This document shows positions 1,676 through 62,039 of a DNA stretch of 64,000 nt, one piece after another. Source of the DNA: the human T2T-CHM13v2.0 reference genome, Homo sapiens; the NCBI RefSeq assembly GCF_009914755.1, contig NC_060932.1. One strand, given 5' to 3'. The translations under genes were made by a program, and so were the position numbers. Below the pieces are notes generated by a model. The model saw nothing but the letters and a program-made list of their open reading frames with translations, made no database searches and was not told the DNA's origin. Each line of letters begins with the position of its first letter. Within the stretch, counting starts at the first letter, position 1.

Positions 1676-4600
1676 TCTTGGACTTGTTTTTTTTTTAGTG
1701 GTAATTTATTTATTGCCATTTCAATCTTGCTGCATGTTACTGATCTGTTAAGGGTATCTAATTCTTCCTGATATAAGCTAGGAAGTTTGCATCTTTCCAG
1801 GAATTTATCTATCTCCTCTAGTTTTCTAATTCGTGCACATAAAGGTATTCATAGTAGTCTTGAACGATTTTTTGTATTTCTGTGGTGTCAGCTGTAATAT
1901 CTCCCATTTCATTTCTAATTGAGCTTATTTAGATTTTCTTTCTTCTTTTCTCGGTTAATCTGGCCAGTGGTCTCCAAGACCAGACAGATTCACAGCAGAA
2001 TTCTGCAAGACATTCAAAGAATTGATATCAATTCCATTGACACTATTCCACAAGATAGAGAAAGAGGGAATCCTCCCTAAATCATTCTATGAAGCCAGTA
2101 TCACCCTAATACCAAAACCAGGAAAGGACATAAACAAAAAAGAAACCTACAGACCACTATCCCTAATGAACATAGGTGCTAAAATCCTTAACAAAATACT
2201 AGCTTCCTGTATCCAACAACATATCAAAAAGATAATTCACCATAATCAAGTGGGTTTCATACCAGGGATGCAGTAATGGTTTAACATATACAAGTCAATA
2301 AAAGTAATACACCACATAAACAGAATCAAAACCAAAAATGACATGATCATGTCATCAGATGCAGAAAAAGCATTGGACAAAATCCAGCAAACTTTATGAC
2401 GAAAACTCTCAGCAAAATCTGCATACAAGTGACCTATTTCAATGTAATAAAAGCCCCGTATAACAAACCCACGGCCAACATAATACGGAATGGGGAAAAG
2501 TTGAAAACGTTCCCTCTGAGAACTGGAATGAGACAAGGATGCCCACTCTCGCCACTCCTCTTCAACACAGTACTTGAAGTTCTAGTCAGAGCAACCAGAC
2601 AAGAGAAAGAAATAAAGGGCATCCAAATCGGAAAAGAGAAAGTCAAAATGTCGTTGTTTACTGATAATATCATTGTTTATCTAGAAAACCCCAAAGACTC
2701 CTCCGTAAAGCTCCTAGAACTTACGTAAGAATTCAGCAAAGTTTCCGGATACAAAATTAATGTACACAAATCAGTAGCTTTTCTGTACACCAACAGCGAC
2801 CAAGCTGAGAATCAAATCAAGAACTCAACCCCTTTACAATAGCTGCAAAAAATTAAAATACTTAGGAATACACCTAACCAAGGAGGTGAAAGACCTGTAC
2901 AAGGAAAACTACAAAACACTGCTGAAAGACATCATAGATGTCACAAATTGAAACACATCCCATGCTCATGGATGAGTAGAATCAATATTGTGAAAATGAC
3001 CTCACTATCAAAAGCAATCTACAAATTCAATGCAATTGCCATCAAAATACCACAACCATTCTTCACATAATGAGGAAAAACAATCCTAAAATTCATATGG
3101 AATCAAAAAAGAGCCTACATAGCCAAAGCAAGACTAAAGAAAAAGAACAAAGCTGGAGACATCACATTACCTGATTTCAAATGATACTATAAGATCTTAT
3201 TCACCCGAATAGCATGGTACCAGTATAAAAATATGCACATAGACCAAAGGAACAAAATGGAGAACCCAGAAATAAATCCAAATACTTAGAGCCAAGTGAT
3301 CTTTGACAAAGCAAACAAAGACATGAAGTGGGGAGAAGACACCCTATTCAACAATTAGTGCTGGGAAAATTGGCCAGCCACATGTAGGAGAATGAAACTG
3401 GATCTTCACCTCTCACCTTATACAAAAATCAACTCAAGATGGATCAAGAACTTCCATCTAAGACTTGAAACTATAAAAATTCTAAAAGACATCAGAGAAA
3501 CTCTTCTTGACATTGGCTTAGGCAGGAATTTCATGACAAAGAACCCAAAATCAAATGCAATAAACATAAAGATAAATAGCTGGGACTTAATTAAATGAAA
3601 GAACTTTTGCACGGCAAAAAGAACAGTCAGTAAAAAGACAACCCACAGAGCGGGAGAAAATCTTCACAATCTATACATCTGACAATGGACTAATATCCAG
3701 AATCTACAACCAACTCAACCAAATTAGCAAGAATAAAACAATCCCATCAAAAAGTGGGCTAAGGATATGAATACACAGTTCTTAAAAGAAGATACACCAA
3801 TGGCCAACAAACATATGAAAAAATGCTCAACATCACTAATGATCTGGGAAATGCAAATCAAACCACAATGCGATATCACCTTACTCTTGCAAGAATGGCT
3901 ATAATCCAAAATTAAAAAAAATAATAGATGCTGGTATGGATGTGGTGAACAGGGAACACTTCTACCCTGCTGGTGGGAATGTAAACTAATACAACCACTA
4001 CGGAAAACACTGTGGAGATTCTTTGAAGAACTAAAAGTAGAACTACGATTTGATCCAGCAATCCCACTACTGGGTATCTACCCAGAGGAAAATATGTCAT
4101 TATACAAAAAGATACTTGCACAGAGATGTTTACAGTAGCACAATTCGCAATTGCAAAAATGTGGAAAAACCCAAATGCCCATCGATCAACAAATAGATAA
4201 AGAAACTGTGGTACATACATATGATGGAATACTACTTAGCCATAAAAAGGAATGAAATAATGGCATTTGCAGTGACCTCGATGAGACTGGAGACTATAAC
4301 TCTAAGTGAAGTAACTCAGGAATGGAAAACTAAACAACCTATGCTCTCATTCATAAATGGGAACTAAGCTATGCATATGCAAAGGCATAAGTATGACACA
4401 ATGGACTTTGGGGACTCAGGGTAAAGGGTGAGAAGGGGGTGAGGGATACTGCAAATTGAGTGCAGTGTATACTGCTCGGGTGATGGGTGCACCAAAATCT
4501 CACAAATCCCTACTAAAGAACTTACAGCAGGGCGCATTGGCTCACGCCTGTAATCCCAGCACTTTGGGAGGCTGAGGCGGGCCGATCACCTGAGGTCGGG

Positions 4601-4900
4601 AGTTCGAGACCAGCCTGGCCAACGTGGTGAAACTCTATTTCTGCTAAAAGTACAAAAATTAGCCAGGCGTGGTGGAGGGCAACTGCAGTCCCAGCTACTT
4701 GGGAGGCTGAGGCAGGAGAATCACTTGAACCCAGGAGGAGGAGGTTGCAGTAAGCCAAGATCGTGCTACTGCACTCCAGCCTGGGCAAAAGAGCGAGACT
4801 GTGTCTCCAAAAAAAAAAAAAAAAAAAAGCTTACTCATGTAACCAAACACCACCTGTTCTCCAATAACCTATGGAAACAAAACAAAACTAAAGAAAAAAA
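1676..4900 (+). mobile_element. 5'-truncated L1PB1-like LINE-1 with 5' inversion (1676-1973 antisense, 1974-4900 sense); disrupted ORF2
   Basis: ORF2 peptides ([31 protein letters not shown]); L1PB-type 3'UTR ending aataacctatggaaa + A-rich tail; inverted piece is the ORF2 segment immediately upstream; degenerate TSD aaacaaagttttc (1665-1677) / aaacattgtttc (4899-4910). Confidence 0.9.
4526..4828 (+). mobile_element. AluS (Sq/Sx-like) inserted in L1PB1 3'UTR
   Basis: Full dimer with A20 tail; TSD aaagaacttac / aaaagcttac; L1 3'UTR resumes after it. Confidence 0.95.
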
Positions 4901-5836
4901 ACATTGTTTCTCAAACTTAAAAATGAAAAGCAAACAACAAACAAAAAATATATGTCTTTCTTCAAGTATAAATAAAGGAATTTCACAAACATGTTACATA
5001 TGTAGAAAATAAAATTGCAGTTATTCTTATTACAATTAGTATGCAACAAAAATGTTAACATTTTATTGGGAAATGCTACCTGGGATTAAGCAACTGCAAA
5101 AAAGTTGCAGCTGCCCAAAGTTTGCCTGCAATCTGAATAAAGATAACATTTAAACAATACAATTGTTTTATTACTTGTCCATTTAACACCTGTAGTGATT
5201 AAGTGTCTACTCTGTGCTAGATATTAGTGATATACGGATAATTAAGATACTTTGCCTTTCAGTAGGAACCACCACAATGAATTGTTTATTGCAATCATTT
5301 GGTAAGAACTAAAACTAGGTTATATGCAATGCATATTGGTGAGAAAAAGGAAAAAATCATCAACTCTACTGTGCTGAGATATCTGGAAAACTTCACTTTA
5401 ACAACAGGTAGAAATGTAACTTACAAAATGAGTTGACCAAGGCCCCAAACTAATCTGCCATTATGATCTTCCATCATTGCATCTAATTTCTTGATGGATA
5501 ATTCACTTAACCCTTTTCCTATTTAGAAAAAAAAATAAAAAAGGTGCAGCTTGTTGCCAATGCTCACATAATTTTACATAAACACGCTCTCTGAGGGTGA
5601 AGCAAATCTGATTTTCAATGTGAAAATAAAATATAAACATTGTTCTTGGAATTATTTCTAAGCAGTACTAACATCAGAATTGTCTGAATAAACTGAAATG
5701 TCCGTTTTGGAAAACACTGGATTCATCAAATGAATCTTCAGGCAACAACTGTTTGAGAATGATGTTAATGTCACCCATAGGAATGCTACATTTTCTAAGA
5801 GTTGACATTTTCAGTGATCAAGAATTACTATATTTT

Positions 5837-60919: not shown

Positions 60920-60944
60920 TTTTTTTCAGGCTTTTAATTTTATT
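60920..60944 (-). terminator. Candidate polyadenylation signal (AATAAA followed 12 nt later by A7)
   Basis: Plus-strand tttatt at 60939-60944 and T7 at 60920-60926, at the edge of a UTR-like unique block. Confidence 0.3.
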
Positions 60945-61554
60945 AAACATAAAAGGGCAATATAAATTCCTGTGCATGTCACCTTTTACTTAAGAATTCA
61001 TTAACAGCGAATTAGTTTAACAAGGCTGTTTTGCAAGAGGCTGTGGTTGCATTCAAAAATTAGAATGGGAACAACGACTTGTAAAAATTAAACATTTTAA
61101 ACTACCACTTACTACATTCACTGTGTCTACAATTTGGCATATTTCTTTCGGTGGCCACAAAATTATAAAATGGACACAGAATAGGGTCTTCAAAAAATTA
61201 AGGACGTTCTTTCTTCTTAACAACATTATAAATATAATTCAAATAAGCATGACAATTTTACCAAATAGATTGACTTTTTTGCTTCAAAGAACACATTTGT
61301 ACATGTAAATTAAGTTTGGTCAATATGTGTGAGTGCATGTGCCTGTGGATGTAAATGGCAGTAAAGGGGAAGGTGGAAAAAAGGGAGATGGTCTGGCTTT
61401 TTTAACTCACTTTTTAAACACCCAAAACAGAGGTACTAAAAAATAATGATGTTGTGAAAATAAAGTATTGCCAACTAGAAAAAAGACTTGAAATTGGCAT
61501 ATTTCTTTCTTATATATTATTAAATATATCGTAAATATAAATCTTACACAATTT

Positions 61555-62039
61555 AGCTCCCCTATCTCCCAGTCTCTGTGAGAGGTTAGGAATCTAACTT
61601 TCCTAGGCCTCAGTTAATAAATACATCTGGCCTAATCACATTGACTAACCTCTCTCCTAACATCATGCAGCAGATTTCACTGGCTCGCCAAAAAATTCTC
61701 CTACATTTTTTTTTTTTTTTTTTTTTTTCCTGAGATGGAGTCTCGCTCTGTCGCCCAGACTGGAGTACAAGTGGCACGATCTTGGCTCACTGCAACCTCC
61801 GCCTCCCAGGTTCAAGAGATTCTTGTGCCTCAGCCTCCTGAGTAGCTAGGATTAAAGGTGCATGCCACCACGCCCAGCTAATGTTTGTCTTTTTAGTATA
61901 GATGAGGTTTCACCATGTTGGTCAGGCTGGTCTCAAACTCCTAACCTTGTGATCCACCCGCCTTGGCCTTCAAAAGTTCTGGGATTACAGGTGTGAGCCA
62001 CCATGCCCGGCCAACTCTCCTGCCTTTTATTTCAACAGA
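61555..62039 (+). repeat. Local direct duplication of LTR segment 60444-60607, later split by an Alu
   Basis: Both copies read ctgtgaga(a/g)gttaggaa(c/t)ctaactttccta...ggcctaatcacattgac...ctctcctaacatca...aactctcctgcctttt. Confidence 0.85.
61706..62012 (-). mobile_element. AluSg-like
   Basis: Full antisense dimer; degenerate TSD aattctcctaca / aactctcctgcc. Confidence 0.92.

What the first reader, a model, noticed from the sequence alone, without database searches (positions are those of the whole stretch)
2790..62039. Cluster of four independent locally templated insertions in 64 kb (fossil template-switch repair hotspot)
Seen: four inserts whose donors lie 0.5-3 kb away: 5837-6665 (inverted, from 2790-3613), 24294-24451 (direct, from 24919-25080), 35071-35537 (inverted, from the host L1 at and below 34570) and 61555-62039 (direct, from 60444-60607). 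None has its own element termini or retrotransposition tail. Each shares private variants or unique flank with its donor. Junctions show 2-6 bp microhomology or a snap-back hairpin. Copy-donor divergence differs between events, so they recurred over long evolutionary time. Known: polymerase-theta end joining and MMBIR/FoSTeS produce such inserts. Inference: this AT-rich locus has repeatedly been repaired by local copying. Repeat annotation hides this because each insert is labelled as just another TE fragment.
Basis: partly seen in the sequence, partly recalled or inferred. Interest (0 to 1): 0.8.

Follow-up and report, generated by a model that had tools for sequence, protein, structure and literature searches.

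The report
Three old local DNA copies, one false
Three of the four claimed inserts in this human intron really are old copies of DNA lying 0.5-2.2 kb away, a known by-product of DNA break repair, while the fourth is an ordinary pair of dispersed repeats and a local hotspot is not shown.

Summary
All four similar pairs exist at the stated places.

- **Event 1** (5833-6666, inverted copy of 2789-3619) is real. By raw identity 27 L1 copies elsewhere beat the local donor. But the two are sisters in a tree (support 100/99) and share 11 private changes.
- **Event 2** (24294-24451) is real. It carries the last ~42 bp of the neighbouring Alu, its (TAA)n tail and ~100 bp of unique flank. Only the donor at 24919-25075 matches it beyond base 78.
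- **Event 3** (35072-35540) is real. It sits inverted inside a minus-strand L1 and shares with the host piece 34387-34565 a deletion junction found nowhere else in the genome.
- **Event 4** (61555-62039) is not a local copy. Nine loci elsewhere match better, its edges are family edges, and it shares no private variant with the "donor".

The real events fit repair-mediated proximal duplication (Pace et al. 2009, PMC2671141). Two are L1-derived, a class that paper's pipeline filtered out.

The hotspot claim stays open: 3 events in 64 kb against 0 verified in about 254 kb of small, imperfect controls. Microhomology at the junctions cannot be judged.

The parts
1973..4525 (+). L1 element A (ORF2 and 3' part), host of the event-1 donor. 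The donor segment is 2789-3619.
   Evidence: 83-86% identical over up to 2.6 kb to L1 copies from other chromosomes. RVT_1 hits on the + strand at 1959-2725.
4527..4828 (+). Alu directly behind the 3' end of L1 A
   Evidence: 77-82% identical to the other Alus of the window.
5833..6666 (-). Event-1 insert B: an 834-bp internal L1 ORF2 piece, an inverted copy of 2789-3619
   Evidence: 85.9% over 844 columns. Family homology stops at 5833 and 6666 in 6 of 6 family loci. No poly(T)/poly(A) at either end. Sister to A with support 100/99. 11 private shared changes.
6667..6793 (+). Alu right-arm fragment abutting insert B, without a tail. Its origin is not resolved.
   Evidence: 71-77% identical to Alu right halves in the window, and no closer to the nearby Alu at 4527-4828. 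Sequence.
24294..24451 (+). Event-2 insert: a copy of the Alu 3' end, its (TAA)n tail and unique flank
   Evidence: 130 of 159 identical to 24919-25075. In the genome search the local donor is the best non-self hit and the only one of 39 reaching beyond query base 78.
24665..24972 (+). Full Alu whose 3' end is part of the event-2 donor
24919..25075 (+). Event-2 donor (last ~42 bp of the Alu, its tail and ~100 bp of flank)
34202..34349 (-). Host L1 of event 3, distal piece. It is colinear with D but about 1.2 kb of L1 is missing between them.
   Evidence: Matches reference loci L046 2840-2713, L042 2766-2643 and L040 549-678.
34387..35020 (-). Host L1 piece D. 34387-34565 is the surviving part of the event-3 donor.
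   Evidence: L046 1377-724. 79.1% identical to E over 182 columns. E is D's best genome-wide hit.
35021..35071 (.). 51 bp between host L1 and insert E that align to neither: filler, or decayed host sequence
35072..35540 (+). Event-3 insert E: an L1 ORF2 piece nested in inverted orientation in the host L1
   Evidence: L046 coordinates 1225-1738 ascending, lying between D (ends at 724) and F (starts at 645). It shares with D a deletion junction that is unique in the genome. No tail.
35541..36190 (-). Host L1 piece F, which continues D on the far side of the insert
   Evidence: L046 645-8, 73%.
60299..60745 (+). Event-4 'donor': one copy of an old dispersed repeat, not a donor
   Evidence: 83% over 451 bp to locus L074 on another chromosome.
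61411..62039 (+). Event-4 'insert': another copy of the same repeat family (61411-61713 and 62010-62039), split by a minus-strand Alu at about 61714-62009
   Evidence: 82-83% over 238-274 bp to L072, L073 and L075, against 78% over 157 bp to the local copy.

Best explanation
Three separate, old repair-mediated proximal duplications lie in this intron of SGCZ.

In each, a chromosome break (or a stalled replication end) was healed by copying 157-834 bp from a template 0.5-2.2 kb away on the same chromosome, in either orientation, and sealing the copy into the break.

- **Event 1** copied an internal stretch of L1 ORF2 (2789-3619) in reverse to 5833-6666.
- **Event 2** copied the end of an Alu with its tail and flank (24919-25075) to 24294-24451.
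- **Event 3** copied part of a minus-strand L1 in reverse into the same L1 at 35072-35540, with loss of at most 79 bp of host. The host later, or in the same event, lost about 1.2 kb that held the rest of the donor.

The fourth pair is unrelated: two copies of a dispersed repeat.

**Shown:** the copy-donor relationships, which member is the copy, the absence of retrotransposition marks, and that event 1 is younger than events 2 and 3.

**Inferred:** the break-repair mechanism (synthesis-dependent strand annealing or microhomology-primed template switching). It rests on likeness to the published class, not on junction evidence.
For: **Event 1**
- A and B are sisters in a maximum-likelihood tree with 6 family copies and 2 older L1s. 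Support is 100/99, the shared branch is 0.02 and the end branches are nearly equal at 0.072 and 0.066.
- There are 8 strict 6:2 columns for the pair A-B against at most 2 for any other pair.
- 19 shared derived states, 11 of them absent from all 6 others and none of those at a CpG.
- The 18-mer with the double change occurs 5 times in the genome: A, B and three L1s only 69-73% identical to B.
- A second marker occurs 13 times, at loci that share none with the first apart from A and B.
- B has sharp ends inside L1 and no tail.

**Event 2**
- The local donor is the only genome match to the ~90 bp of non-Alu flank.
- The copy shares the Alu's particular (TAA)n tail.

**Event 3**
- E interrupts an otherwise colinear L1.
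- E is D's best hit. D is E's third best, and the alignment is longer than for any other copy.
- Both carry the same deletion of about 70-97 bp. Its junction occurs without mismatch only in D and E in the whole genome.
- A shared 3-bp deletion word occurs only 4 times.

**Class**
- Pace et al. 2009 describe 824 such proximal duplications, with mean length 162 bp, donor within 5 kb and no poly(A) (PMC2671141; abstract and sections 6, 7, 8, 11 and 14 read).
Against: - By raw score the event-1 donor is only row 29 of 40. 27 copies elsewhere score higher, at 86% against 88%.
- For event 3, two copies elsewhere score slightly higher than D.
- The private variants of events 1 and 3 could in principle have been present in a rare source element rather than acquired after insertion.
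- No orthologous empty site was available, so insertion into a pre-existing sequence is inferred, not seen.
- No junction hallmark could be established at 12-22% divergence.
- Event 1 (834 bp) is longer than the published maximum of 619 bp for proximal events.
Confidence: 0.75

Rival explanations
1. The pairs are just independent insertions of the same transposon families that happen to lie close together. Nothing was copied locally.
For: This is true for event 4. Nine loci elsewhere score higher than the local copy, the homology edges are those of the family, and there are no private shared states. For event 1, 27 copies elsewhere score higher than the local donor.
Against: - Event 2 includes unique flank matched only locally.
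- In event 1, A and B are sisters with support 100/99 and share variants that are not a subfamily mark.
- Event 3 shares a junction that is unique in the genome.
- Inserts 1 and 3 are internal ORF2 pieces without a 3' end or tail. L1 retrotransposition does not normally give that (recalled).
Confidence: 0.07
2. Events 1 and 3 arose at the RNA stage, during a single L1 integration (twin priming or reverse-transcriptase template jumps). Both arms would then come from one L1 RNA and share the private variants of its source.
For: - Both events are inverted L1 ORF2 pieces next to an L1 of the same lineage.
- Sequence alone cannot tell source-private variants from post-insertion ones.
- A preprint abstract in a search listing says about 85% of inversions under 2 kb form by twin priming (10.1101/2021.12.20.472354; listing only).
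Against: - Event 1: the arms point towards each other, and B lies 1.3 kb beyond the 3' end of A, past an Alu and about 1 kb that matches no fetched L1 or Alu locus. Twin priming gives an inverted 5' piece abutting the direct piece, with the two pointing apart (recalled model).
- Event 3: E is nested between two colinear host pieces, so there are two inversion junctions, and E does not run to the L1 3' end.
- Event 2 is not L1 sequence at all.
Confidence: 0.1
3. The window is a true recurrent hotspot of local copying. The local rate would be well above the genome average, for example because this AT-rich stretch of a very large gene replicates with difficulty.
For: - 3 verified events in 64 kb.
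- 0 verified in one 64-kb window 1 Mb away.
- 0 of the repair type in 59 short loci totalling 190 kb.
- The published density is 824 events in the transposon-derived part of the genome. That gives far fewer than one per window.
- At least two different ages.
Against: - The controls are small. The short loci cannot hold widely spaced pairs and are not matched for base composition, and two of their candidate loci were not tested.
- The window was chosen because it showed a cluster.
- The published count leaves out transposon-derived inserts and acceptors outside transposons, so the true background is unknown.
- Pace et al. found the events spread over chromosomes as expected by size and found no tie to gene density.
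Confidence: 0.2

Closest known systems
Repair-mediated proximal duplications (RDs) of Pace, Sen, Batzer and Feschotte, PLoS Genet 2009 (PMC2671141)
   Same: - Non-tandem copies of 50 bp to several hundred bp.
- Donor within 5 kb on the same chromosome, in either orientation.
- No poly(A).
- Mostly primate-age.
- Event 3 lies inside a transposon with a small host deletion and possible filler, as in their Table 1.
   Different: - Two of the three inserts are themselves L1 sequence. [quoted passage not shown]
- Event 1 is 834 bp against their maximum of 619 bp.
- The junction hallmarks and the empty sites that they used could not be checked here.
'Doublets', short paired local duplications (Thomas et al. 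2004; seen only as cited in PMC2671141; otherwise recalled)
   Same: Pairs of short duplicated stretches concentrated within about a kilobase of each other.
   Different: As quoted, those studies looked at identical or nearly identical duplicons under 100 bp. The events here are longer and 12-22% diverged.
L1 5' inversion by twin priming (model recalled; a preprint abstract seen in the listing)
   Same: Inverted L1 pieces beside L1 sequence of the same lineage, sometimes with overlap at the junction.
   Different: The geometry does not fit. Event 1 is convergent and 2.2 kb apart. Event 3 is nested with two junctions and does not reach the 3' end.
Templated insertions of polymerase-theta end joining and of MMBIR/FoSTeS template switching (abstracts seen in the listing; details recalled)
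   Same: Break or fork repair that copies nearby sequence into the junction, in direct or inverted orientation.
   Different: As I recall, polymerase-theta inserts are mostly tens of bases long, while these are 157-834 bp. Microhomology at the switch points could not be tested.

Membership tests
Repair-mediated proximal duplication (Pace et al. 2009) | The insert has one parental copy, on the same chromosome within 5 kb | tested here: met
   - Event 2: the donor 471 bp away is the only genome match to the flank part.
- Event 1: the donor 2.2 kb away is the sister sequence.
- Event 3: the donor 507 bp away shares a unique junction.
- Event 4: not met.
Repair-mediated proximal duplication (Pace et al. 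2009) | Not retrotransposed: no poly(A)/poly(T) end and no target-site duplication | tested here: met
   The ends of inserts 1-3 were read directly. There is no tail, and I saw no flanking direct repeat by eye.
Repair-mediated proximal duplication (Pace et al. 2009) | Not tandem: insert and donor more than 50 bp apart | tested here: met
   The gaps are 2214, 471 and 507 bp.
Repair-mediated proximal duplication (Pace et al. 2009) | Junction hallmarks: microhomology, filler, small deletion | tested here: inconclusive
   - Event 3: at most 79 bp of host L1 missing, and 51 unaligned bp at one junction.
- Events 1 and 2: nothing can be judged at 12-22% divergence without an empty site.
Repair-mediated proximal duplication (Pace et al. 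2009) | Orthologous empty site in a species that branched off earlier | not testable with these tools
   Only the window's own genome could be searched.
Repair-mediated proximal duplication (Pace et al. 2009) | Length within the published range for proximal events (50-619 bp) | tested here: inconclusive
   Event 2 (158 bp) and event 3 (469 bp) are within the range. Event 1 (834 bp) is above it. The range describes their sample and is not a strict criterion.
L1 5' inversion by twin priming | An inverted 5' piece directly joined to the direct 3' piece of one insertion, with the pieces pointing apart and the direct piece running to the poly(A) | tested here: not met
   - Event 1: the pieces point towards each other, and B lies 1.3 kb past the 3' end of A.
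- Event 3: E lies between two colinear host pieces and ends inside ORF2.
- The defining geometry is recalled, not taken from a call.
Polymerase-theta templated insertion | A short insert copied from sequence close to the break, primed at microhomology | tested here: inconclusive
   The lengths of 157-834 bp exceed what I recall as typical. Microhomology is not testable.
Independent copies of one dispersed repeat family (for event 4) | Better matches elsewhere than locally, homology edges equal to family edges, and no private shared variants | tested here: met
   - Local copy is row 11 of 40, at 78% against up to 85% elsewhere (83% for the top-scoring hit).
- 8 of 12 fetched loci start their match to the copy at 61554-61560.
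- All 16 shared non-majority states also occur in at least one other locus.

The most novel reading that the evidence does not exclude
This stretch of the SGCZ intron is a long-lived hotspot of break repair by local copying. If so, transposon-derived proximal duplications, invisible to repeat annotation and to the published catalogue, would be several times more common than the 824 catalogued events and would cluster in certain AT-rich regions of very large genes.
Probability: 0.2. Interest if true: 0.55.

Novelty: new member of a known kind. Interest (0 to 1): 0.3.

Why it matters
The events themselves are neutral scars in an intron, with no sign of function.

Their value is methodological.
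- Two of the three are L1-derived. They can only be told from ordinary L1 fragments by private shared variants or a private junction.
- Ranking by raw identity gives the wrong answer for event 1, where the local donor is row 29 of 40.
- The one published genome-wide catalogue filtered such cases out. [quoted passage not shown]

If a genome-wide scan showed clustering, it would point to regions of recurrent breakage in the germline.

Tried and rejected
- **Raw identity ranking** as a test of local origin. It misleads when both copies are highly diverged, so I replaced it with shared-derived-state counts, a tree and genome-wide marker searches.
- **Gene conversion** between two independent L1s for event 1. 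Rejected: identity is even along the pair (83-92% per 100 columns), the longest identical run is 33 bp, and B has no 3' end.
- **A subfamily mark** as the source of the A/B variants. Rejected: the double-change word occurs only 5 times in the genome, and the three other sites are old L1s 69-73% identical to B.
- **The Alu fragment at 6667-6793 as a second templated piece** from the Alu at 4527-4828. No support: 77% identity, no better than to distant Alus.
- **A fifth local event in the Alu pair** 57115-57261 / 57730-57876 (85%). Not supported: the second Alu has a pure T29 tail and is 80-84% identical to three other Alus of the window, which suggests a young copy close to the family consensus.
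- **Pfam on the duplicated stretches.** Only the upstream part of L1 A gave RVT_1. The ORFs from the duplicated segment gave nothing significant.
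Full report
**The observation**

The window is an AT-rich piece (GC 0.31-0.40 in 4-kb steps) of an intron of human SGCZ.

- 2789-3619 vs 6666-5833: inverted, 85.9% over 844 columns.
- 24294-24448 vs 24919-25075: direct, 81.8% over 159.
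- 34387-34565 vs 35253-35072: inverted, 79.1% over 182.
- 60448-60600 vs 61559-61713: direct, 78.3% over 157.

Of the 15 pairs of at least 100 bp lying within 3.5 kb of each other, these are the 4 that are not Alu-Alu pairs. A looser scan found no further low-copy local pair.

**Event 1 (5833-6666)**

An L1 (element A) runs on the + strand from about 1973 to 4525. It is 83-86% identical to L1 copies elsewhere, has RVT_1 matches at 1959-2725, and is followed at once by an Alu at 4527-4828.

Insert B is an internal ORF2 piece on the minus strand. In 6 of 6 family loci the homology stops exactly at 5833 and 6666, although their L1s continue on both sides. There is no tail at either end.

The local donor is row 29 of 40, with 27 copies on other chromosomes scoring higher (86% against 88%). 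This is misleading.

- Against the majority of six family copies, A and B have 83 and 80 derived states, while the others have 30-44.
- A and B share 19 of these. Eleven are in none of the six others, and none of the eleven is at a CpG.
- Strict 6:2 columns number 8 for A-B and at most 2 for any other pair.
- In a maximum-likelihood tree A and B are sisters with support 100/99. The shared branch is 0.02 and the end branches are nearly equal at 0.072 and 0.066.
- The word carrying two adjacent private changes occurs 5 times in 3.1 Gb: A, B and three L1s that are only 69-73% identical to B.
- A second marker occurs 13 times, at loci that share none with the first apart from A and B.

The variants are therefore not a subfamily mark. 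Identity is even along the pair and the longest identical run is 33 bp, which argues against gene conversion. B is a copy of A made after about 2% of divergence on the shared branch.

**Event 2 (24294-24451)**

The insert consists of the last ~42 bp of an Alu, its particular (TAA)n tail and about 100 bp of flank. It matches the 3' end and flank of the full Alu at 24665-24972 (130 of 159).

In the genome search the local donor is the best non-self hit. All 38 other scored hits cover only the Alu part, no further than query base 78. The member attached to the complete Alu is the donor, so the direction of copying is clear.

**Event 3 (35072-35540)**

I used fetched family loci as rulers. In the coordinates of locus L046, the minus-strand host L1 reads as follows:

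| Window position | Piece | L046 coordinates |
|---|---|---|
| 34222-34349 | H1 | 2840-2713 |
| 34407-35020 | D | 1377-724 |
| 35541-36190 | F | 645-8 |

Between D and F lies E, in the opposite orientation, at L046 coordinates 1225-1738. E is therefore nested in an otherwise colinear L1. At most 79 bp of host is lost, and 51 bp at one junction do not align.

Only the first 182 bp of E still has a local counterpart. The rest of its range (1501-1738) falls in about 1.2 kb that the host has lost between H1 and D. Three loci agree on this.

- E is the best genome-wide hit of D (151 against 150 bits).
- D is the third best hit of E, and its alignment runs about 20 bp further than any other.
- That extension crosses a deletion of about 70-97 bp relative to the family, which D and E share.
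- The junction pattern occurs without mismatch only in D and E in the whole genome. The two hits with 2 mismatches are AT-rich matches elsewhere.
- A shared 3-bp deletion word occurs 4 times in the genome.

E has no tail.

**Event 4 (61555-62039)**

The core belongs to a dispersed family with at least 116 first-look candidates.

- The local 'donor' is row 11 of 40. Nine loci score higher, at up to 85% identity (83% for the top-scoring hit) against 78%. Several of the nine look like paralogues of one another.
- The 'insert' is part of a ~300-bp repeat copy (61411-61713, continuing at 62010-62039 behind a minus-strand Alu). It matches loci on other chromosomes over 238-274 bp at 82-83%.
- The 'donor' is a 450-bp copy that matches another locus at 83%.
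- The left edge of the local homology is the point where 8 of 12 fetched loci also start their match.
- All 16 non-majority states shared by the pair occur in at least one other locus. Each member shares as many with L072 or L074 as with its neighbour.

This is not a local copy.

**Mechanism**

Twin priming does not fit. In event 1 the arms point towards each other, and B lies 1.3 kb beyond the 3' end of A. In event 3 the piece is nested, with two junctions.

The three events match the class described by Pace et al. 2009 (PMC2671141; abstract and sections 6, 7, 8, 11 and 14 read). That paper reports:

- 824 proximal duplications, of mean length 162 bp and maximum 619 bp;
- a donor within 5 kb, and no poly(A);
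- junctions with microhomology, filler or small deletions, ascribed to synthesis-dependent strand annealing.

[quoted passage not shown] Here the junction hallmarks could not be judged, because the copies are 12-22% diverged and no empty site was at hand. The choice among strand annealing, template switching and polymerase theta therefore stays inferred.

**Ages**

Kimura two-parameter (K2P) distances are 0.128 for event 1, 0.22-0.25 for event 2 and 0.229 for event 3. With the rate used by Pace et al. (2.2e-9 per site per year) this gives roughly 29, 50-58 and 52 million years.

These are probably too high. The A and B lineages are two to three times as long as those of related copies. Event 1 is clearly younger. 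Events 2 and 3 cannot be separated.

**Hotspot**

Two kinds of control were available.

1. *59 fetched loci totalling 189,808 bp*, each only 3.0-3.8 kb long. They gave 9 non-Alu rows in 6 loci. Three loci were tested.
   - L067 and L048 are members of dispersed families, with the local partner not among the 40 scored hits.
   - L032 is a pair unique in the genome, but it is a 209-bp direct repeat flanking an Alu exactly, like a very long target-site duplication.
   - L045 is near-tandem. L026 and L066 were not tested.
2. *One 64-kb window 1 Mb downstream* (GC 0.378). It gave 5 non-Alu rows out of 23: three rows from one tandem array, and two from one inverted L1 pair. One member of that pair is a young L1, 96-97% identical to many copies and only 67% identical to its neighbour.

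That makes 3 events in 64 kb against 0 verified of the repair type in about 254 kb. The contrast is suggestive. But the controls are small and poorly matched, and the window was selected for showing a cluster. The claim stays open.

**Verdict**

This is a known kind of event. It carries a useful lesson: transposon-derived cases are hidden, and raw identity ranking fails to find them.

Noticed in passing
L032:1047-1762 (G000:C7:131008186-131008901): An Alu is flanked exactly by a 209-bp direct repeat (90% identical) that occurs nowhere else in the genome. It looks like an unusually long target-site duplication.
   Followed up: partly
window 2789-3619 and 5833-6666: The A and B lineages (0.07 each, plus 0.02 shared) are two to three times as long as those of the most similar L1 copies elsewhere (0.027-0.05). 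This may reflect a high local substitution rate. It may also be partly because the compared copies were picked as the best matches.
   Followed up: no
window 34350-34401: The host L1 of event 3 lacks about 1.2 kb of internal sequence here, exactly where homology to the insert ends. It could be a later deletion or part of the same complex rearrangement.
   Followed up: partly
window 6667-6793: An Alu right-arm fragment without a tail abuts the event-1 insert. It is 71-77% identical to other Alus, so it is older than they are or of another monomer type.
   Followed up: partly
window 16361-16687 and 30967-31294: A direct pair 14 kb apart at 88.7% over 328 bp, the second member ending in an A-rich tail. 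It is probably two 3' ends of one transposon family.
   Followed up: no
window 60299-60745: The RefSeq 'enhancer' feature at 59981-60733 given in the hub annotation largely overlaps this old dispersed repeat copy.
   Followed up: no
window 57664-57876: A 5'-truncated minus-strand Alu with a pure run of 29 T, which suggests a young insertion. This may explain its 85% match to the neighbouring Alu at 57104-57386.
   Followed up: partly
window 12528-12703: A TA/CA-rich microsatellite that also aligns to its own reverse complement.
   Followed up: no
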